A stretch of 64,000 nt of DNA, taken from IMG/VR virus record IMGVR_UViG_3300007538_000022, positions 26,275 through 90,274 of that record; one strand, given 5' to 3'. The notes below the pieces were generated by a model. The model was not told the DNA's origin. It saw only the letters and a program-made list of their open reading frames with translations, and made no database searches. The position numbers and the translations under genes are program-made. This stretch comes from a virus. Below are positions 40,107 to 49,915 of this stretch, in pieces (position 1 is the stretch's first letter; each line of letters starts with the position of its first letter).

Positions 40107-40700
40107 TTAACCTCTATTAATAACAATTTCGTCTACTAAACCATATTCTAAACTTTGTTCAGCAGTCATAATATTATCACGATTCATATCATGTTCTAAT
40201 TCATCAAATGTTTTGCCTTTTGAATTATGCTTAACATATAGTTCTGTTAATGTTTTCTTCATTCTAACAATTTCTTTAGCATGTATTTCAATATCGCTTG
40301 CTTGTCCTTGTGCCCCTCCTAATGGTTGATGAATTAAATGTCTTGCATTAGGTAGCATTTTACGTTTACCCGGTGCTCCTGCCTGCGCTAAAAAAGAGCC
40401 CATTGAACATGCTTGACCCATTACAATAGTTTGAACATCTGGTTTAATAAATTGCATAGTGTCATAAATGCTTAATCCTGAAGTAATTACACCACCAGGT
40501 GAATTAATATACAAGTAAATATCTTTTTCAGAATTTTCTGATTCTAAGAATAACAATTGGGATACAATAGAGTTAGCAACATGATCATTAACTTCGCTAC
40601 ATAACATTACAATACGATCTTTTAATAATCGACTGTAAATATCCATAGCACGTTCGCCACGTGGACTTTGCTCGATTACCATTGGTACTAGATTAGTCAT
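40107..40700 (-). CDS. clpP: ATP-dependent Clp protease proteolytic subunit
   Basis: [35 protein letters not shown]. Confidence 0.97.
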
Positions 40701-40701
40701 T

Positions 40702-40962
40702 TTATTTTCTACCTTGATATGTTACAGTTTCAGTTGGGCCTTTGCTAGTAAGATTAAAGCCAGCCATTGATGCTTGATATTCATCAAATTTCTCATTGTA
40801 TCTGAGAACTAATTTTAAACTTCGTTGCAATGCTACAGATAATGTTTGTTTTGGATAAAAATCTAATATTTCTGCTGTAACAGTTTGATTTTTATCAACA
40901 TTATACACTTCACACGTGTCGCTATATGTAGTTTTTAAATTATTCATGTTCTTTACTATCAT
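40702..40962 (-). CDS. Hypothetical protein
   Basis: ORF within the operon. Confidence 0.65.
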
Positions 40963-41194
40963 TTAATGCTGATTTTAACAAAATATTTTCCACTAATGTT
41001 TTTACTAAAGTTGCGAGCATAACAACAACTTTTTGGTCATCTTGTATTGACTCAAAATCATTTAATACACTAGCTGACACTTTTTCAAAGAGTTCTTCTT
41101 TAGAACACGATAACTTCTCCCATTTTACTTCAAATGAAAAATCGGTACTTTGTGCAATCTCTGCTATGTTTTTTATATTTTCTTCGTTAGCCAT
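40940..41194 (-). CDS. Hypothetical protein
   Basis: ORF within the operon. Confidence 0.65.
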   Translation of the reverse strand: MANEENIKNIAEIAQSTDFSFEVKWEKLSCSKEELFEKVSASVLNDFESIQDDQKVVVMLATLVKTLVENILLKSALNDSKEHE

Positions 41195-41195
41195 A

Positions 41196-41651
41196 TTATT
41201 TCAACCTATGTTGGTTATTTGAATACCATTCTTTAAATATTTGCTGTTCCTTTTCAAATGCTTCTACTTCCCACGGATAGTTTGAGTAGGAAGTAGATGA
41301 AACATCAAACACCTTAGAATGCCATGTTAATTGATTTGTTTTAATTAATTGTTTAAGTTCATTTCTAGCATATTGCTTTACATGAACTAATTCGTGTGCT
41401 AATGCAATTAATAATTCTTTCAATCCTAAAGAATTATCTACTTCTATGGAAAACCATCGTGGTCGATGATTAGTATCTTCCCATGCACACACTGCGTCGA
41501 TACCTGTGTTTTTTTTAAGACCTGTAACAAACTCTATTTCAATATAAAGTTTATTTTGTAATTTAGGCATTAACATTTTAACACCTAAATTGTACATATC
41601 AGTAATACATTGTTGTTTTAACTTTGTTCCACCTTTAAAATCAATCGTCAT
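41196..41651 (-). CDS. Small HExxH metallopeptidase-like protein
   Basis: LAHELVHVKQY...YPWEVEAF; likely start MTIDF. Confidence 0.7.
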   Translation of the reverse strand: MTIDFKGGTKLKQQCITDMYNLGVKMLMPKLQNKLYIEIEFVTGLKKNTGIDAVCAWEDTNHRPRWFSIEVDNSLGLKELLIALAHELVHVKQYARNELKQLIKTNQLTWHSKVFDVSSTSYSNYPWEVEAFEKEQQIFKEWYSNNQHRLK

Positions 41652-41958
41652 CTTTGATAATTTTGTTGTTAACAATAGCTTTATCAAGACGTTCTTTGAT
41701 TAATTCTTCTGTTTTTTTAATTAATAATTCCATAGAGCCTGGACCTTCCCAAACTTCATTTAATGCTTTATTAATTTCATCCATTGGAACTCTTGATAAT
41801 TTAGTATATGAATAAAAATATTCAGACAAATAATTCCTAACAGGACTTGGAATGTTCTGATGAGCTGAAATATTCCATGTTCCATTAAATCCATTAACAT
41901 TATGTGGTGCATCGTTAATACGAGTTTTCCAATATTCACCTGGAAGATAATTCATCAT
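41641..41958 (-). CDS. Hypothetical protein
   Basis: ORF downstream of TAGACA-18-TATAAT (42022-41993). Confidence 0.6.
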   Translation of the reverse strand: MMNYLPGEYWKTRINDAPHNVNGFNGTWNISAHQNIPSPVRNYLSEYFYSYTKLSRVPMDEINKALNEVWEGPGSMELLIKKTEELIKERLDKAIVNNKIIKDDD

Positions 41959-42022
41959 AGTTTTTTCTCTTTGTTATGTTGTGTAAAATAATATTATATA
42001 ATATAAATGCACGTATTGTCTA

Positions 42023-42244
42023 CTATAAACGTAAACTAATACGTCCTTTTGATAAATCATATGGGGATATTTCAAGCTTTACCTTGTCGCCGAGTACTAT
42101 TCTAATGTTAAATTTCCTCATTTTACCACTAGAATAACATATTACGGTATGATCTTGATCATCTAATTTAACTTTAAACATTTGGTTAGGTAAGATATCT
42201 GTAATTGTTCCAATTACTTCTATTAAATCTTTTTGTGTTGCCAT
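42023..42244 (-). CDS. infA: Translation initiation factor IF-1
   Basis: IEVIGTI...LPNQMFKVKL...SGKMR..IRI..GDKV..EISPYDLSKGRI. Confidence 0.96.
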   Translation of the reverse strand: MATQKDLIEVIGTITDILPNQMFKVKLDDQDHTVICYSSGKMRKFNIRIVLGDKVKLEISPYDLSKGRISLRL

Positions 42245-42294
42245 TAATTTCCTTTAAAATATATTCGTTTAATAGTGTTATTTATTTGTAATAT

Positions 42295-42471
42295 TCATTT
42301 TTTCTGTATTATAATTTCACCATCATCGTTTACTGACACTAATAATGCATCTCCAGCTTGCCATCCCATTTTTTCCATAATATCTGGAGGGATATTTAAT
42401 AATACATTTTTATCATCACCGTCAATTTTAGTGAATATTTCTTCAGTTTTATATGAGACTGTTTTAGTCAT
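42295..42471 (-). CDS. AbrB/MazE/SpoVT-like small DNA-binding protein (58 aa, not in the track)
   Basis: Own translation ...LLNIPPDIMEKMGWQAGDALLVSVNDDGEIIIQKK; AAGGA RBS. Confidence 0.7.
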   Translation of the reverse strand: MTKTVSYKTEEIFTKIDGDDKNVLLNIPPDIMEKMGWQAGDALLVSVNDDGEIIIQKK

Positions 42472-42473
42472 TG

Positions 42474-43205
42474 TTAATCCTTAATTGAAATTTTTTCAAA
42501 ATTCATAATTTCCAATATGAGAAAATCTGACACATCAGATAATCGTAATGGATACACTGTTGCATTATGAAATGTAATAGTACGATTCACTACACTGTTA
42601 AGAAGCACAGTTGCAGTATGATCAACTGTGCTAATTTTATATAATCGATTAGTTCGATCTTTAAAAATAAATTGATCGCATTTATTGTTTTTACGGCTTT
42701 TTATTATAGTTTTTACATAATCTAATGATACTTCATTAACTTCGTAGCTACCCGAAGCTTCTGCAGAAATATATGTACATGAAAGTTGTTTGTATTCATT
42801 ATCTTCTTTAAAAAATGTTGGCATTTTTATAATAAGACCTATAGAATTAACAGTGATCTTAGTAGGACTAGTAAGCACTTCTGCTACAGCTTTCCAGTAG
42901 TCTGAAATATTATCTCCATTTAATGCTTTTAATGTTAACTTATTTTTAAAGTATTTTCTAATACATTGAGCATCATCATTAAATCTACAAACAGCATCAC
43001 AATCTATTAATGTTTCAATAGGATGTTCTTCTTTAATTTTATATACAATATCAACAAGATTACTATACATTGTAGAATAAGAATAAGATAGACTACCATA
43101 ATATAAACATATAGCTATAGGATCTATGTTTAATTCATGAGCACTATACGACTCACTCATTGCTATTGTTTCACATATGCTTTCAAGCATTGATTGTTTA
43201 GTCAT
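42474..43205 (-). CDS. Hypothetical protein
   Basis: 243-aa ORF. Confidence 0.7.
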   Translation of the reverse strand: MTKQSMLESICETIAMSESYSAHELNIDPIAICLYYGSLSYSYSTMYSNLVDIVYKIKEEHPIETLIDCDAVCRFNDDAQCIRKYFKNKLTLKALNGDNISDYWKAVAEVLTSPTKITVNSIGLIIKMPTFFKEDNEYKQLSCTYISAEASGSYEVNEVSLDYVKTIIKSRKNNKCDQFIFKDRTNRLYKISTVDHTATVLLNSVVNRTITFHNATVYPLRLSDVSDFLILEIMNFEKISIKD

Positions 43206-43379
43206 ATTAAGCCTTTACATTATAAAATTATTTAATTACTATTAACCGTTGATTTCATCAACGTATTTCGTTACTGATGTCTTGTTTGTGACTTCGTCAA
43301 AACAGACATTACGTAACTCATATTTTTTATTTTTTTTAGAATAATTATAATTTTTTAATTATTTCTTTTATGATACTTT

Positions 43380-43848
43380 CTGTAGATCGTTAGCCATAGG
43401 TCACCCTAGCAAGCTAGAGTGACAAAAAGATTTTTCTGTGAGTCGCTTCGCACATGAGTTTGTCAGCGGACTTTGTGACTCTCCCTTAGGCTCTGTACCT
43501 TACCTATGCCGCTACGAATTTTAAGAAATACTTTCAGGTGACTGTGTATTTCATAGGGATCAAACGTCAAAAACTTTTATACTATAAACAAACTAGGCAT
43601 TACCCTAATCATCGTCCTGTAAAGGATAGTGTATTATAGTCTGACAACAGACAGCCAAATTACGCATAGACCACACTCTCGATAATGTGACATTACGCAG
43701 CACTATTACAATCGGCGTGCCAACCTTAATTCTGTTTGTTTAAATGCCTAAGTATGATGTGATAGATGCCATTGAGATTTGCCTGTACTAACTTGCCTAA
43801 CTTTGTGCCTAAATTTTGTATTTAAAGATTGCCTGTAATTTTTTAATT
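43380..43848 (-). ncRNA. Candidate large structured non-coding RNA (or RNA-primed origin)
   Basis: No ORF of 60 aa or more; visibly more GC-rich than the flanks; multiple stems incl. a G(CUUG)C-capped hairpin with a G-U pair on the minus strand; consensus promoter directly upstream. Confidence 0.6.
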
Positions 43849-43854
43849 GTGTAT

Positions 43855-43883
43855 AGTATAATGCTGAATAAAAGATTTGTCAA
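43855..43883 (-). promoter_or_regulatory. sigma70-type promoter driving the non-coding region
   Basis: TTGACA-17-TATACT. Confidence 0.85.
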
Positions 43884-43895
43884 CACTTTTTTAAA

Positions 43896-44144
43896 TTAAT
43901 TTTTATCTTCAATGGAAATTATTTCTGTTTTCTGAATAATTAAAGTTTTAAATGATGCAGAGTCAGATAAGTCTGGATTGTTTAAGTCTGTAGAGATAAT
44001 TTGTATTGGTATAAATTGTCTCGGATCGTTCAAAAGATCTTGTAATCGTTCATCTTTTGAAAGATAAATGTAACCTACAAATGCAGGCATTGATTTTGTT
44101 TTAATATTAACTCGTTTACACTCTTTGTATGAATTGTTTTTCAT
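43896..44144 (-). CDS. Hypothetical protein
   Basis: G.IYL..ERLQDLLND.R.FIP; late motif at 44172. Confidence 0.65.
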   Translation of the reverse strand: MKNNSYKECKRVNIKTKSMPAFVGYIYLSKDERLQDLLNDPRQFIPIQIISTDLNNPDLSDSASFKTLIIQKTEIISIEDKN

Positions 44145-44181
44145 AAATTAAATTAATATAGTTAAAGAAAATATTTATCAT

Positions 44182-44868
44182 TTAAATTTGCGGAAAAAGC
44201 ACATTTTCTGAAAAATATTCTAATTCATTGTCTGAAAATCCTAACTTTTTTAATACTGCAGGTGTTTTTGGATTTTGTTTTTGATTATGACAATAAAAAT
44301 TATGTTTCTTAATTACAGTCTCCGACAGTTCTGTGTTGTTAAACATCTGAATAGATGTTAAGTATTGATTTAACACTTTTAACATTAAATGAATAAGTAG
44401 AGATACTTCTGCAATATTTTGAATGTTGCCAGCAGCAATTATACGATCGCTAAAGATATTCTTTGCCCATTCTGGAAGAACTCGTTCTTTAGAAACAGAT
44501 GTATTTTTTACTAAAGAATAATATTGAGAAGATACTAAATGGTTAGCTCCGGCAGACCCTGGACTAACATCCAAAAATAAGCCAGTTACTTTGTTAGCAC
44601 CGGCTATAACATCAAACCCAAAAATTGGGCTATTATTAGTATGACTTGGAAAAATGCATAAATGCATCATCCATAATTTTTTTGTAGTTCTAGCATCGAT
44701 AATATTTAGATGTGCTCGACTTATGTAATCGTTAGTCCAACTTCGATTTATTGAAGTAACAGAATTAAATGGTAATGTATGTACAGGGATTTCAGTTGCA
44801 TATGTATTAACGCATGTAACTGCAGACTCTGCACATTTTTCTAATAAGTCCCATATTTCACTATTCAT
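44182..44868 (-). CDS. Ferredoxin-dependent bilin reductase (PcyA/PcyX-like)
   Basis: RAHL, WMMHLCIFP, PIFGFD, R.LPEWA..IFS, YC.NQKQNPKT; adjacent to heme oxygenase. Confidence 0.88.
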   Translation of the reverse strand: MNSEIWDLLEKCAESAVTCVNTYATEIPVHTLPFNSVTSINRSWTNDYISRAHLNIIDARTTKKLWMMHLCIFPSHTNNSPIFGFDVIAGANKVTGLFLDVSPGSAGANHLVSSQYYSLVKNTSVSKERVLPEWAKNIFSDRIIAAGNIQNIAEVSLLIHLMLKVLNQYLTSIQMFNNTELSETVIKKHNFYCHNQKQNPKTPAVLKKLGFSDNELEYFSENVLFPQI

Positions 44869-45397
44869 ACAATTGACGAAAAACATTAATAATAAACTTA
44901 AAACACGTTTTAGCTTCGTCAGCCATTGTGTCGTCTAAGTTAGATTTAATAAATGATTTTAAAGCGTCAACATCCCCGTCAAATGTATACATTTTTCCAC
45001 TACCCGGAGTGCGAGATGCTAACAGTTGACCTCCATTTAAATCACCCATAAAGTGAACATATATATGTGACCACAGTTTATGTACATTATTGCTGATAGA
45101 GTATAGGTATGTAATATACTCAGTAGTACTAGTTAAGATTTTAGGAGGTTTATCGTATGGATTTAGCTCTAATAAGTCTTCAGATATATAGTTAGTTCGA
45201 TATAATTCGGTATGATCTTTAAATAAATTATGTAGTGTTATAAAAGATTCTAAAGTATTGTATATAAGATATCTATTTTGCAAAAAAACAACGTAATCGG
45301 CAGTATTAATATTATTATTAAGCAAATCTTTAACAAAAAGTTGATTTTCTGCTTCTTTGTGTAATTCCCAAATAGCTTTAGCTAATGTAGACATCAT
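44861..45397 (-). CDS. Heme oxygenase (HemO/Ho1-like)
   Basis: LHKEAE proximal His, Y..LE, L.R...I.EDL, HIYVHFMGDLNGGQ, EA..CF. Confidence 0.9.
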   Translation of the reverse strand: MMSTLAKAIWELHKEAENQLFVKDLLNNNINTADYVVFLQNRYLIYNTLESFITLHNLFKDHTELYRTNYISEDLLELNPYDKPPKILTSTTEYITYLYSISNNVHKLWSHIYVHFMGDLNGGQLLASRTPGSGKMYTFDGDVDALKSFIKSNLDDTMADEAKTCFKFIINVFRQLYE

Positions 45398-45693
45398 TCT
45401 TCCTCTAATTTAATTTGTAATGGAAATCTGTGAGATCTACTTAACAGTTGTGCTTCTGAAGCTTTTTGTTCAGCAATCTCAAAGTGATAAACACCTACAA
45501 TAGCTGAGCCTTCGTTGTGGATTTTTGAAGTTAAGTTTATTGCAGATTGTTCAGAGTGTTTAAACACATTTATTAAAATGTTAATAACCCATTCAAACGG
45601 AGTTTGGTCGTCATTCACAAACACAACTTTATATTTTTTTGGTTTTTTAAGTGACTTTTTAGTTTTAGTATCTAATACAGCTTCGGTAGTCAT
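45394..45693 (-). CDS. clpS: ClpS N-degron adaptor
   Basis: YKVVFVNDDQTPFEWV...IHNEGSAIVGVY..EIAE.K...FPL. Confidence 0.93.
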   Translation of the reverse strand: MTTEAVLDTKTKKSLKKPKKYKVVFVNDDQTPFEWVINILINVFKHSEQSAINLTSKIHNEGSAIVGVYHFEIAEQKASEAQLLSRSHRFPLQIKLEEE

Positions 45694-45715
45694 TGTAAAT
45701 CCTTAGTGGAAGTAT

Positions 45716-45746
45716 AAAAATACGCCCTTTATTTCTAAAGGGCGTA
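45716..45746 (-). terminator. Intrinsic terminator after hsp20
   Basis: TACGCCCTTTA/TAAAGGGCGTA stem plus T tract. Confidence 0.8.
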
Positions 45747-45754
45747 TATAGTAA

Positions 45755-46216
45755 TTAGTTTTTTGATAATGTTAATACATTGTCATCGACTTGACTAATT
45801 TTAATTTGTTTAGGTTGCAGTTCTTCAGGTACATTTCTTACTAAATGAATATCTAACATACCAATATTTAGTTTAGCAGATTTAACTTCGATATGATCAG
45901 CTAAGGTAAACTCTCTTTGAAAATTGCGACCACCAATACCTCGATGTAAGTACTGCACATTGTCGTCTACTCTAGGTGAAGTTCCAACGACTTTTAAGGT
46001 GTTTTGATGATATGTAATTTCCAAGTTTTCCATGCTAAACCCGGCAACTGCTAATGAAATAAGATACTCATTTTCATTAAGTTGACAAATGTTATAGGGA
46101 GGATACCCTGATGAATGATTACTCGAATAATGTCGATCTAATGTATTAAATAATTGATCAAAGCCGATTGATGCTCTGTAAAACGCAGGTAAGTCTAATG
46201 AAGTTACTTTTTTCAT
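45755..46216 (-). CDS. Small heat-shock protein (Hsp20/IbpA-like)
   Basis: IGFD, YPPYNI, LAVAGF, YLHRGI..RNF.R.F.LA, GML.I.L. Confidence 0.95.
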   Translation of the reverse strand: MKKVTSLDLPAFYRASIGFDQLFNTLDRHYSSNHSSGYPPYNICQLNENEYLISLAVAGFSMENLEITYHQNTLKVVGTSPRVDDNVQYLHRGIGGRNFQREFTLADHIEVKSAKLNIGMLDIHLVRNVPEELQPKQIKISQVDDNVLTLSKN

Positions 46217-46272
46217 TTTAATTTCTCCTTATATTAAGCAAGATATATGATTAAGCCTGAAAGCACTTAATC
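46217..46272 (-). promoter_or_regulatory. ROSE-like RNA thermometer in the hsp20 leader
   Basis: UCUUGCUUA pairs with the UAAGGAGA Shine-Dalgarno; upstream hairpin GAUUAAG...CUUAAUC. Confidence 0.7.
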
Positions 46273-46378
46273 TAAAAAAACACTTATAGCAAGGCGACTT
46301 GGCTTCATATTTTTCTTACTCGCTATAAGTGTTAAAGCTATTACATATTAAGCATTACTGCTTATTTTTATTTATCAT

Positions 46379-48019
<1,641 letters not shown>

Positions 48020-48026
48020 CTATTTG

Positions 48027-48311
48027 TTACTGTACAACTGCTAAAATTTGTGATTCATCTAAAATTAGATAATCAACCCCATCTTCGGATACTTTAATAC
48101 CTGCCCCTTTATTAAAGATAACAGTATATCCAATCGATACTTCGAGAGGAACAATTTGTCCATCGGCAGTAACTCGACCACTGCCTACTTCACATACTTC
48201 CCCTTTGATTGGTTTTTCTTTAGCGTTGTCTGGAATAAATAAACCACCAGATGTTTTTGTTTCAGTTTCACAAGGTTTGACAAGAATTTTGTCACGAATT
48301 GGTTTCATCAT
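48027..48311 (-). CDS. groS: Co-chaperonin GroES
   Basis: KPIRDKILV...TSGGLFIPDNAKEKP..GEV..VGSG. Confidence 0.97.
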   Translation of the reverse strand: MMKPIRDKILVKPCETETKTSGGLFIPDNAKEKPIKGEVCEVGSGRVTADGQIVPLEVSIGYTVIFNKGAGIKVSEDGVDYLILDESQILAVVQ

Positions 48312-48362
48312 AAAATTTCTCCTTTATTAAGCAAGATAAAAATGAGCCCATTATTGGCACTC
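48312..48362 (-). promoter_or_regulatory. ROSE-like RNA thermometer in the groES leader
   Basis: UAUCUUGCUUAAUAAAGGAGAAAUU, nearly identical to the hsp20 leader; upstream hairpin GAGUGCC...GGGCUC. Confidence 0.65.
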
Positions 48363-48383
48363 TACAATACGCACAATGCGTGG

Positions 48384-48629
48384 TTAAAAAAGCCGTTTCG
48401 ATCTAATTGAATCTTTTTCAATCTTTTTCAAATGTCGAACTCTTCCTGCGGCTTTATCCTTTTTACGTTGTACACTAGGTTTAGTGTAAAACTCACGTTC
48501 ACGTAACAGTTGTAAAAGTCTGTCTTTTTGTACTAGTTTTTTAAGTTTTCTTAATGCAAAGTTTACGTCGTTATTTCTAACTTCTACAGAAAGACCTTTT
48601 ACTTTATTGTAACTTCGTTTGTTCTTCAA
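48384..48629 (-). CDS. rpsU: Ribosomal protein bS21
   Basis: VEVRNNDVNFALRKLKK...LREREFYTKPSVQRK. Confidence 0.9.
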   Translation of the reverse strand: MKNKRSYNKVKGLSVEVRNNDVNFALRKLKKLVQKDRLLQLLREREFYTKPSVQRKKDKAAGRVRHLKKIEKDSIRSKRLF

Positions 48630-49017
48630 TCGTACCTCCTAAGATACTTGTTAGTATGTCTAATGAAATTATTTTATTATTACTTATAATACTATATATA
48701 CTTTTTGTTGCTTTTGATAACCAAAAAGTTTTCGATTTACTAATTAAAAAACTTAGCAAATCTCGCACACATCCAGATGTGTTATCTACATCAATAATAG
48801 CTATATCACACATGTTAAACGACGATAATAACCAGTTAATTTCTTCAGTTGTGTTTTCTAAACTATTATAATAGTAAATATTTATGTTTTTGTCAATTTT
48901 ATTTAGTAAAATGTCTTGTACATTTTCTTTTAATTCTATACTAGGGTATAACAATAATACTTGAAACGACTCGTTAAATAAGTTATCAGGGTATGAAATA
49001 ATGTTAATTTTATTCAT
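48604..49017 (-). CDS. Hypothetical protein
   Basis: ORF within the operon. Confidence 0.65.
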   Translation of the reverse strand: MNKINIISYPDNLFNESFQVLLLYPSIELKENVQDILLNKIDKNINIYYYNSLENTTEEINWLLSSFNMCDIAIIDVDNTSGCVRDLLSFLISKSKTFWLSKATKSIYSIISNNKIISLDILTSILGGTIEEQTKLQ

Positions 49018-49426
49018 TTATTACAATTAATCCCTCGTTAATCAGTTTAGCTCTATTTTGTAAATGTAAAACATCCCTTTCTTCTTTACTATCAACATAC
49101 GGAACAGCATATCCTTCTGATAACATTGTTTCAGCAACAGACACTGCATCTACTAAAAAGTCGCCTAAAATTCTTCCAAATTTACCTTTAAATTGATTAG
49201 ACACTAGTACAACTGTAGAACCATTATTAAAGATTTCTTTTAACCGTTTAGTAGATAATAATCCAAACTGTTTCTCAACTAAATCAGAAGATCTAGATTC
49301 AGGAGCATCAATCCCAACTATTCGCACCCTTTCATTATAAAGCCAGACTCCAAACCCTAAATCGATGTTAATATCAACTGTGTCACCGTCTACTATTTTA
49401 TTTATTACACAATTGTAACTGTACAT
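49010..49426 (-). CDS. Thermonuclease (SNase-like)
   Basis: IVDGDT, RVRIVGIDAPESR, GKFGRILG. Confidence 0.9.
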   Translation of the reverse strand: MYSYNCVINKIVDGDTVDINIDLGFGVWLYNERVRIVGIDAPESRSSDLVEKQFGLLSTKRLKEIFNNGSTVVLVSNQFKGKFGRILGDFLVDAVSVAETMLSEGYAVPYVDSKEERDVLHLQNRAKLINEGLIVINE

Positions 49427-49475: not shown

Positions 49476-49915
49476 GCATAAGTAGTTCTGTTGACCGGAT
49501 ACTTACAATCCGCGAACCTGCTGGTTATTAAGCAGCCATTTCCAGATCGGAAAACAATCCTTCAATTTTCAGTTCAGGGGTAAATGTTTTATTGTCATTT
49601 ACATTAATTACTTCTTTGTCTAATCTAATTAGACTTATGTTAATTCCGCGAATACTAATATTCAAGCATACATTAACAACGGTTTTCCGTATTAACCGAT
49701 TCTCACTATTACCAAACATACCACGTCGAAACTATGTCACCCCCATCGTAAGCACTATTCATTAACTAACGCATTACGATATTCGTCTTAGGTTTTTAAT
49801 TTGCTATGCTGGAAGATACCTTATCTCCCGATTACCACTTAATAGTGCTTATGGTGGAGGTGGCGGAGAATCGCACTCCGCGTCCGCAATATCCCTAATA
49901 ACAGGTCAACGAATT
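49476..49915 (-). ncRNA. ssrA: Circularly permuted two-piece tmRNA (alphaproteobacterial type): acceptor piece about 49915-49852, intervening segment 49851-49745, coding piece 49744 to about 49476
   Basis: The 3' end GGACGCGGAGTGCGATTCTCCGCCACCTCCACCA precedes the 5' end GGGGGTGACATAGTTTCGAC; 7-bp acceptor stem with G3-U70; tag frame VNDN...EMAA followed by TAATAA; GGTCAACAGAA 3' motif. Confidence 0.92.

What the first reader, a model, noticed from the sequence alone, without database searches (positions are those of the whole stretch)
43380..43883. Promoter-driven structured non-coding RNA candidate of about 470 nt that I cannot assign to a family
Seen: the largest ORF-free gap in the window (43206-43895), starting at a consensus sigma70 promoter. 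Minus-strand stems include GUCACUCUAG-CUUG-CUAGGGUGAC (43423-43400), GAGUC...GACUC, GAAAUAC...GUAUUUC, GUCUG-UUGU-CAGAC, UCCU-UUAC-AGGA and CAUAGG/CCUAUG. An extremely AT-rich tract follows (43321-43375). Inference: either a novel large phage ncRNA, or an R-loop primer transcript followed by an unwinding element (replication origin).
Basis: partly seen in the sequence, partly recalled or inferred. Interest (0 to 1): 0.8.

Follow-up and report, generated by a model that had tools for sequence, protein, structure and literature searches.

The report
Promoter-driven twin-box Polynucleobacter-1 phage RNA
The gene-free gap holds a real, about 470-base folded non-coding RNA with its own promoter; it is a divergent full-length member of a phage RNA family of unknown function, of which only the first third is catalogued (Rfam Polynucleobacter-1).

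Summary
Window 43206-43895 is the largest ORF-free gap. It is closed in every frame under any single stop reassignment. It starts at a TTGACA-17-TATACT promoter on the minus strand, and its core is GC-enriched (0.40-0.48 against 0.31).

The RNA can be assigned to a family. Positions 43748-43570 (-) are a divergent copy of Rfam Polynucleobacter-1 (RF01718): 22 bits, below the 37-bit cut-off. They carry the family's invariant 20-mer and keep helices P4 and P6 through compensatory changes. A model built without the window finds only this site (31 bits, E 5e-5).

The family RNA is really about 400-470 nt. Its uncatalogued 3' part ends in a hairpin flanked by two identical 7-nt boxes. The window has this signature exactly once (box ACAGAAA, 43439-43433 and 43383-43377).

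The invariant 20-mer is in at least 119 uncultured viral contigs and is almost absent from prokaryote genomes.

This copy has no nuclease gene upstream, whereas 113 of 123 relatives have a GIY-YIG gene there. It has its own sigma70-type promoter and a leader with five AGGCA repeats, so the RNA is an autonomous gene. Its function remains unknown, and the origin reading is not supported.

This scan found the same family before on other DNA.

The parts
43855..43883 (-). Sigma70-type promoter: TTGACA (43883-43878), 17 nt, TATACT (43860-43855), with an A-tract upstream. The predicted transcription start is near 43848.
   Evidence: 11 of 12, the best site in 3 kb. A second nuclease-free relative, L224, has TTGACT-18-TATAAT at the same place relative to its AGGCA leader. 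The start site itself is inferred.
43738..43848 (-). A/U-rich leader with five AGGCA motifs (43834-43830, 43810-43806, 43798-43794, 43784-43780, 43749-43745) and one UGGCA (43771-43767), spaced 12-24 nt apart.
   Evidence: AGGC[AU] on the RNA strand is enriched from -300 to -85 and from +50 to +99 relative to the core in 63 family RNAs, and the antisense motif is rare there. L224 has 5 copies and L199 has 9. In L069 the motifs lie in three different reading frames of the upstream gene, so the signal is at nucleotide level.
43570..43748 (-). 5' domain, homologous to Rfam Polynucleobacter-1. Helices: P1 43721-43717 with 43703-43699; P3 43652-43648 with 43643-43639; P4 43640-43631 with 43589-43581; P5 43626-43623 with 43618-43615; P6 43610-43604 with 43597-43591.
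   Evidence: Rfam hit 43725-43581, 22.2 bits, E 0.016. Model R1, built without the window, gives 31.2 bits and E 5e-5 and is the only significant hit in 64 kb. P4 and P6 are kept by compensatory changes.
43612..43631 (-). Invariant 20-nt core, CACUAUCCUU-N-ACAGGACGA, which contains hairpin P5.
   Evidence: Invariant in all 62 cluster representatives. An exact match is found in at least 119 viral contigs. All 24 hits of a looser pattern are RF01718 above its cut-off.
43525..43552 (-). Hairpin GAAAUAC...GUAUUUC, at the position of the family's variable hairpin.
   Evidence: Only the position is matched; covariation was not tested for this copy.
43489..43508 (-). CAUAGG (the 5' strand of a long-range helix with CCUAUG at 43400-43395) followed by the GGUACAG motif (43499-43493). 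This corresponds to the family's GGUAC(C/A)GG...ACCGCC loop.
   Evidence: GGUAACAGCCUAA and GGUACAGG variants in relatives. The correspondence is inferred from order and motif.
43433..43445 (-). Twin unit 1: CGA-CUC-ACAGAAA (box 1 at 43439-43433).
43400..43423 (-). Terminal 10-bp hairpin between the two boxes.
   Evidence: A hairpin of unrelated sequence sits at this place in every relative inspected.
43377..43399 (-). Conserved tail CUAUGGCUAA and twin unit 2, CGA-UCU-ACAGAAA (box 2 at 43383-43377). This is the last conserved element and so the likely 3' region of the RNA.
   Evidence: the tail is nearly the same in L221. No canonical intrinsic terminator follows, so the 3' end is not determined.
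43321..43375 (.). Extremely AT-rich spacer between the RNA and the next gene (start codon at 43205). It was not seen in the relatives inspected and may carry that gene's promoter.

Best explanation
The gap encodes an autonomous gene for a folded non-coding RNA of about 470 nt, read on the minus strand from a sigma70-type promoter from about 43848 to about 43377. It is a divergent, full-length member of the phage RNA family whose first third is catalogued as Polynucleobacter-1 (RF01718). The uncatalogued remainder ends in a hairpin flanked by two identical 7-nt boxes.

Shown:
- family membership of both halves;
- RNA-level covariation in the family;
- the family is almost confined to viral contigs;
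- this copy has no adjoining nuclease gene.

Inferred (my odds about 0.35): it acts in trans as a stable folded RNA, probably in a ribonucleoprotein.
- The invariant 20-nt core hairpin would be the contact for a conserved partner.
- The AGGCA-repeat leader would be a multi-site platform for a protein.
- The two identical boxes would be read twice by one reader, either a dimeric protein or a base-pairing strand.

The GIY-YIG or PD-(D/E)XK genes next to most relatives are best read as homing endonucleases that invaded beside a conserved gene. On that reading this window carries the empty, endonuclease-free allele.
For: Membership of the 5' half:
- Rfam sub-threshold hit over the full model length.
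- Exact match to the family's invariant 20-mer. A pattern of 19 fixed bases retrieved 24 viral contigs, and all 24 are RF01718 above its cut-off.
- Model R1, built without the window, hits only 43570-43748 (-), at 31.2 bits and E 5e-5.
- The P1 loop GCCGAU is shared. P4 and P6 are kept with different letters.

Family structure: 86.4% of cells are paired against 35-42% for slid partners; 28 of 36 pairs carry compensatory changes; 0 of 500 shuffles reach the observed values.

Membership of the 3' half:
- Conservation runs about 250-300 nt beyond the Rfam model.
- The signature NN-ACUC-box ... NN-AUCU-box occurs once in the window, at the expected place, and in none of 200 shuffles.
- The best nhmmer hit of the subgroup's 3' profile is that same site, E 0.075.

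Autonomy:
- Its own promoter, and the same layout in L224.
- 113 of 123 relatives have a SegE-like gene just upstream. No SegE-like match was returned for this 90-kb record, but the same search also found nothing in its 14 control genomes, so it does not show absence. The gene directly upstream of the RNA is DUF6812, not a nuclease.
- The window's neighbours have no relatives near other members.

Viral confinement: at least 119 viral contigs, against one 1.3-kb MAG contig among 185,579 prokaryote species genomes.

Composition: GC is 0.40 in the RNA against 0.31 in the window.
Against: - No transcript evidence. No RNA run holds the stretch, and the ends are only inferred.
- Folding energy is not better than shuffles.
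- The Rfam score is below the curated cut-off.
- R1's score rests largely on the invariant core, because the model carries few base pairs.
- The middle of the 3' domain (43575-43450) shows no significant sequence similarity to relatives.
- No partner for the boxes was found, so the mechanism is conjecture.
Confidence: 0.8

Rival explanations
1. It is the RNA partner (guide or scaffold) of a small nuclease. On this reading the family RNA works together with the minimal GIY-YIG or PD-(D/E)XK enzyme encoded just upstream, and the twin boxes set its specificity.
For: - 113 of 123 loci carry a 142-aa GIY-YIG-only protein that ends 100-140 nt before the core.
- Other loci carry a PD-(D/E)XK gene at the same spot.
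- The boxes come in discrete types that recur in distant RNAs.
Against: - This window has the RNA with its own promoter and no nuclease beside it. A search for SegE-like genes in the 90-kb record returned nothing, though that search was uninformative because its controls also returned nothing.
- Two unrelated nuclease families at one site is the usual picture of homing endonucleases invading beside a conserved gene.
- A 7-nt guide would be too short to give specificity.
- No complementary site was found.
Confidence: 0.1
2. It is a replication origin. The promoter would make a primer RNA that stays as an R-loop, the AGGCA repeats would be iterons, and the AT-rich tract would be the unwinding element, as at T4 oriF and oriG.
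For: - A strong promoter.
- Five or six direct repeats of one short motif.
- A 55-nt tract of about 5% GC after the RNA.
- The phage is T4-like: topoisomerase II, ligase, thymidylate synthase and baseplate wedge genes.
Against: - The family's helices covary as RNA over about 400 nt, which is far more than a primer needs.
- The AT-rich tract lies 470 nt from the promoter and was not seen in the relatives inspected.
- In relatives the AGGCA motifs lie inside coding sequence, all in the sense orientation.
- There is no change in GC skew here.
Confidence: 0.07
3. It is a cis-acting leader (a riboswitch-like 5' UTR) of the co-oriented 243-aa gene at 43205-42474.
For: - Same strand as the gene, with no canonical terminator between the RNA and the gene.
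- Weinberg et al. 2010 marked the motif as possibly cis-regulatory (PMC2864571).
Against: - In most relatives the next gene is convergent or unrelated.
- The 243-aa protein has no homologue at all, so it cannot be a conserved regulated gene.
- The RNA's conserved end lies 170 nt before the start codon.
Confidence: 0.05

Closest known systems
Polynucleobacter-1 RNA motif (Rfam RF01718; Weinberg et al. 2010, Genome Biol 11:R31, PMC2864571)
   Same: The invariant 20-nt core, the P1 hairpin with its GCCGAU loop, the three-way domain closed by P4 with hairpins P5 and P6, and a freshwater origin.
   Different: - The window scores 22 bits against the 37-bit cut-off.
- The catalogued model covers 141 nt, whereas the real RNA is about 400-470 nt with a twin-box 3' domain that Rfam does not list.
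- The motif was listed for Burkholderiales and possibly cis-regulatory. Here it is a phage gene with its own promoter.
Full-length 'twin-box' Polynucleobacter-1 RNAs of uncultured T4-like phages
   Same: The order of elements: AGGC motifs, the 5' domain, a variable hairpin, the GGUAC loop, unit 1, the terminal hairpin, the tail and unit 2. Each box is preceded by NNA-CUC or NNA-UCU.
   Different: - No GIY-YIG or PD-(D/E)XK gene upstream.
- Its own sigma70-type promoter.
- Five AGGCA repeats in a non-coding leader.
- The box ACAGAAA is not seen among the 87 core-bearing relatives but is shared with 29 metagenome contigs of other subfamilies.
- A genome of 31% GC, against 37-44% in the relatives.
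Large ornate orphan RNAs found in phages (GOLLD, ROOL)
   Same: They are large, structured, phage-borne and of unknown function.
   Different: No match to either model in the Rfam scans. No sequence or architectural relation was found. This is a resemblance in kind only, recalled from general knowledge.
T4 oriF/oriG R-loop origins
   Same: A promoter followed by an AT-rich element in a T4-like phage.
   Different: At oriF and oriG the unwinding element lies directly behind a MotA-dependent middle promoter, and no conserved folded RNA is involved. Here 470 nt of covarying RNA lie in between.

Membership tests
Rfam RF01718 Polynucleobacter-1 | A score at or above the curated gathering cut-off (37 bits). 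| tested here: not met
   22.2 bits, E 0.016, over the full model length 1-141. There is no hit at the gathering threshold.
Rfam RF01718 Polynucleobacter-1 | The invariant core CACUAUCCUU-N-ACAGGACGA with hairpin P5. | tested here: met
   An exact match at 43631-43612. It is invariant in the 62 representatives.
Rfam RF01718 Polynucleobacter-1 | P1 hairpin, closing helix P4 and hairpin P6 around the core. | tested here: met
   - P1 is GGCAC/GUGCU with a GCCGAU loop.
- P4 is ACUAUAA(U)AC with GUUUAUAGU.
- P6 is GAUUAGG with CCUAGUU.
P4 and P6 use different letters from the family but pair. The family helices covary. The window's P2 region does not align well.
Rfam RF01718 Polynucleobacter-1 | Recognised by a model of the wider family that was built without the window. 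| tested here: met
   R1 gives 31.2 bits and E 5e-5, and the next hit has E 1.4. Caveat: the model has only 9 base pairs, and the invariant core dominates the score.
Full-length twin-box form of the family | Two identical 7-nt boxes, preceded by NNA-CUC and NNA-UCU, flanking a terminal hairpin about 190-250 nt after the core. | tested here: met
   The strict pattern is found once in the window, at 43445-43377, and 0 times in 200 shuffles. The same layout is seen in 87 relatives.
Full-length twin-box form of the family | A small nuclease gene directly upstream (usual but not universal). | tested here: not met
   The upstream gene is DUF6812. A search for SegE_GIY-YIG in the 90-kb record returned no match, but it also returned nothing in its 14 control genomes, so it does not show absence. 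113 of 123 relatives have such a gene.
T4-type R-loop replication origin | An unwinding element directly downstream of a middle promoter, and a persistent RNA-DNA hybrid. | not testable with these tools
   The layout differs: the AT-rich tract is 470 nt from a sigma70-type promoter. Hybrid formation needs experiments.
Riboswitch or cis-regulatory leader | Consistently upstream of one class of genes. | tested here: not met
   The downstream genes differ among relatives and are mostly convergent. The window's downstream protein has no homologues.

The most novel reading that the evidence does not exclude
The twin boxes are specificity determinants that come in a small set of discrete types. ACAGAAA, for example, is shared by RNAs with quite different 5' domains and 25-55% GC. 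One reader would read them twice, so that this widespread phage RNA superfamily would be a programmable recognition device: an RNA-guided or RNA-scaffolded system for phage DNA or RNA transactions, possibly for exclusion between co-infecting phages. The AGGCA-repeat leader would serve as its protein-loading platform.
Probability: 0.1. Interest if true: 0.9.

Novelty: new variant of a known kind. Interest (0 to 1): 0.6.

Why it matters
A structured RNA of 400-470 nt is conserved in hundreds of uncultured T4-like and jumbo phages. It is almost absent from cellular genomes, and only a third of it is catalogued. That puts it in the same class of open problem as other large orphan RNAs.

This copy adds three points:
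- The RNA stands alone as a gene with its own strong promoter, so it is not merely an appendage of the nuclease genes usually found beside it.
- The family reaches below Rfam's threshold into a 31% GC T4-like phage that carries its own translation and proteostasis genes. By CheckV's 25% completeness estimate, that phage may be very large.
- The repeated AGGCA leader and the recurrence of one box type across distant subfamilies give concrete handles for experiments.

Tried and rejected
**Searches that found no relatives**
- Close relatives through neighbouring proteins. The 243-aa protein has no relative in viral contigs and only itself in 5.8 billion proteins.
- The 58 loci found with the bilin reductase contain nothing like the gap.
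- GenBank phages: no match to the window gap, to two family RNAs, or to a 44-nt core query.
- Relatives of a virus record cannot be drawn. The whole-record search with RF01718 found nothing because its first look is coarse.

**Sequencing runs**
- No RNA holder is listed.
- Contigs of four DNA runs are fragmentary. One strain differs by 5% in the downstream gene and is nearly identical in the gap, but the pieces cannot be linked.

**3' domain similarity**
- A profile of the canonical 3' extension gives no hit in the window.
- A profile of the regions upstream of the 29 same-box contigs gives no hit at this locus.

**Search for a partner of the boxes**
- An apparent complementary site 40-49 nt after the core start is a conserved U/G-rich segment that pairs with any purine-rich box through G-U pairs. 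It does not covary, so I rejected it.
- Reading the boxes as anticodon-loop complements fails for most box types (by hand).
- Pairing of AGGCA with the UGCC(U) of the P6 loop shows no covariation (by hand).
- Perfect 10-nt complements of the box units: 1 found in 467 kb of held loci against about 1.8 expected. There are none beyond the RNA gene itself in five other phage records, 442 kb in all.
- The window's 11-nt match in the bS21 mRNA is therefore probably chance.

**Other checks**
- The leader is not a recognisable remnant of a nuclease gene.
- The first automatic consensus structure for the model was poor, with 9 pairs. I supplied helices by hand for the pair counts.

Full report
**What is there.** The window is part of a 90-kb IMG/VR virus record that CheckV rates 25% complete. 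Near-identical DNA is held by freshwater metagenome runs. The phage is T4-like: it has both topoisomerase II subunits, DNA ligase, thymidylate synthase, baseplate wedge and tail fibre genes.

Positions 43206-43895 form the largest ORF-free gap in the window. Every frame holds all three stop codons, so the gap is truly non-coding. A TTGACA-17-TATACT promoter faces the minus strand at 43883-43855. GC rises to 0.40-0.48 between 43400 and 43800, against 0.2-0.3 on either side. Folding energy is no better than shuffles on either strand, so the stems alone prove nothing.

**Assignment of the 5' part.** At the gathering threshold Rfam reports only a permuted tmRNA elsewhere in the window. A permissive scan of the gap gives one hit: Polynucleobacter-1 (RF01718) at 43725-43581 (-), 22.2 bits against a 37-bit cut-off, E 0.016, over the whole model.

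I took what the window and the Rfam consensus share (19 fixed bases) and scanned IMG/VR. It found 24 contigs, and all 24 carry RF01718 above the cut-off. The aligned sequences share with the window more than the search pattern:
- the whole 20-mer CACUAUCCUU-N-ACAGGACGA;
- the GCCGAU loop of P1;
- the 3' strand of the closing helix.

The 135 loci held fall into 62 clusters at about 80% identity. The same 20-mer occurs in only one 1.3-kb MAG contig among 185,579 prokaryote species genomes, and nothing similar was found in GenBank phages.

A covariance model built from 62 representatives without the window hits the window once, at 43570-43748 (-), with 31.2 bits and E 5e-5. That model has few pairs, and the invariant core carries much of its score.

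The structural argument is independent of that score. On the 62-sequence alignment, eight helices that I defined by hand are 86.4% paired, against 35-42% when the partners are slid. 28 of 36 pairs show compensatory changes, and no shuffle of 500 reaches the observed values. In the window P1, P3, P4, P5 and P6 are all present. P4 (ACUAUAA(U)AC with GUUUAUAGU) and P6 (GAUUAGG with CCUAGUU) use letters different from the family's but still pair. The window is nearest to a subgroup that includes L132, L124, L189 and L069.

**The RNA is longer than the catalogued motif.** In the relatives, conservation and visible covariation continue for 250-300 nt past the end of the Rfam model. The order of elements is:
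1. a variable hairpin;
2. a GGUAC(C/A)GG...ACCGCC loop;
3. a terminal hairpin;
4. a conserved tail.

Two identical 7-nt boxes flank the terminal hairpin. The first is preceded by NNA-CUC and the second by the same NNA-UCU. Among 87 relatives there are 17 box types.

The window has CGA-CUC-ACAGAAA at 43445-43433 and CGA-UCU-ACAGAAA at 43389-43377, around the 10-bp hairpin 43423-43400. This strict signature occurs once in 64 kb on both strands and never in 200 shuffles. The best hit of the subgroup's 3' profile is the same place, though weak (E 0.075). The stretch 43575-43450 matches relatives only in the order of its elements.

**What is special about this copy.**
- *No nuclease gene upstream.* In 113 of 123 loci a 142-aa SegE-like GIY-YIG gene ends 100-140 nt before the core, in a T4-like setting: an SbcC-like gp46, an Hc1-like protein and a convergent baseplate hub gene. 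A few loci have a PD-(D/E)XK gene there instead. The window has neither. The upstream gene is DUF6812. A search for SegE-like matches in the 90 kb returned nothing, but the same search also found nothing in its control genomes, so it does not show absence. Neither neighbour has relatives near other members. The leader is not a decayed nuclease gene.
- *Its own promoter and an AGGCA leader.* The RNA has its own sigma70-type promoter, followed by a leader with five AGGCA and one UGGCA. AGGC(A/U) motifs on the RNA strand are a family trait. In L069 they sit in three different reading frames of the upstream gene, so the signal is at nucleotide level.
- *Relatives with the same box.* A metagenome scan for the window's own twin unit gave 29 contigs. 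Most show the same box-hairpin-tail-box layout but lack the Polynucleobacter-1 core. They belong to several different subfamilies with 25-55% GC. One of them, L224, has TTGACT-18-TATAAT followed by five AGGCA repeats, as in the window. L199 has nine such repeats. So box types recur across distant RNAs, and the promoter-plus-AGGCA-leader form is a second, nuclease-free way of carrying this kind of RNA.

**How it most likely works.**

Shown: a conserved, covarying, virus-confined RNA gene that is here autonomous.

Inferred: it acts in trans as a folded RNA. A 20-nt core that never varies across 62 clusters points to contact with a conserved partner. Five to nine evenly oriented short motifs in an A/U-rich leader look like a multi-site protein platform. 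Two boxes kept identical while differing between lineages point to one reader that reads both. I give this general picture about 0.35.

I read the neighbouring nucleases as homing endonucleases that settled beside a conserved gene, for three reasons:
- two unrelated nuclease families occupy the same site;
- about 8% of loci are empty;
- this window shows that the RNA stands without them.

My search for a partner of the boxes failed:
- no covarying complementary segment lies inside the RNA;
- there is no excess of complementary 10-mers in 467 kb of flanks;
- there are none in five other phage records beyond the RNA gene itself.

The window does contain a perfect 11-nt complement of unit 2 in the first codons of the phage bS21 gene. 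Given the negative controls I treat it as chance.

**Rivals.**
- *RNA partner of the nuclease.* The adjacency favours it. This nuclease-free copy weakens it.
- *Replication origin.* The family's RNA covariation disfavours it. The AT-rich tract lies 470 nt from the promoter and was not seen in the relatives I inspected. GC skew shows no change here.
- *Leader of the downstream gene.* The downstream genes of relatives are unrelated or convergent, and the window's downstream protein is an orphan.

**Relation to earlier work.** The only paper in the library that names the motif is Weinberg et al. 2010 (PMC2864571). It lists the motif as a possible cis-regulatory RNA of Burkholderiales and fresh water. 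After I had reached the family on my own, the scan's notebook showed that other agents had described the same full-length twin-box RNA on other genomes. My results agree with theirs on length, the boxes and the nuclease neighbours. One note says the RNA also lies in bacterial genomic islands. My scan with the exact core found a single tiny MAG contig, so I could not confirm that.

**Verdict.** It is a new variant (sub-threshold, promoter-driven, nuclease-free) of a known but barely described and functionally unexplained RNA family.

Noticed in passing
window 49528-49915 (-): A circularly permuted (two-piece) tmRNA gene, Rfam RF04321, 73 bits, E 4e-12. ARAGORN does not call it. Permuted tmRNAs are typical of Alphaproteobacteria and a few other groups (general knowledge), which hints at the host.
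   Followed up: partly
window 40107-49426 (-): A cluster of translation and proteostasis genes around the RNA: ClpP, IF-1, ClpS, Hsp20, GroEL, GroES and ribosomal protein bS21. It also holds a staphylococcal-nuclease homologue, heme oxygenase and a ferredoxin-dependent bilin reductase.
   Followed up: partly
window 48593-48583 (-), in the bS21 gene 48629-48384: A perfect 11-nt complement (CUUUCUGUAGA) to twin unit 2 of the RNA (UCUACAGAAAG) at codons 12-15 of the phage bS21 mRNA. The chance expectation is roughly 0.03-0.1 per window. No comparable second site was found in five other phage records.
   Followed up: yes
window 43213-43192 (-): The ribosome-binding site and first codons of the downstream 243-aa gene (GGCUUAAUAUGACUAAACAAUC) resemble the family's conserved tail (GGCUAAGUGUGACUGAACAAUC). 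The nhmmer E-value is 6, so this is at chance level.
   Followed up: no
window 43829-43863 (+): On the opposite strand, overlapping the RNA's promoter, lie TTGCCT-17-TATAGT and a perfect TATAAT. A transcript from here would read antisense into the DUF6812 gene. It may be no more than a by-product of the AT-rich palindromic -10 region.
   Followed up: no
loci L196-L224 (metagenome contigs): Twenty-nine contigs share the window's exact twin unit (ACUC-ACAGAAA ... AUCU-ACAGAAA) but lack the Polynucleobacter-1 core. They fall into several subfamilies, for example those with GGUAACAGCCUAACCCUACC. The twin-box module therefore defines a wider superfamily than RF01718. L200, L209 and perhaps L219 may be chance matches.
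   Followed up: partly
L173, L111, L150 (viral contigs): Here the 20-nt core lies inside long ORFs on the opposite strand, with no recognisable RNA around it. It is probably a chance or relic match, not a family member.
   Followed up: partly
window 42510-42885 against 43077-43876, run X6: In one metagenome, contigs differ from the window by 20 letters in 376 within the downstream gene, but by 0-1 letters in 724 within the gap. The pieces are short and may come from different strains.
   Followed up: no
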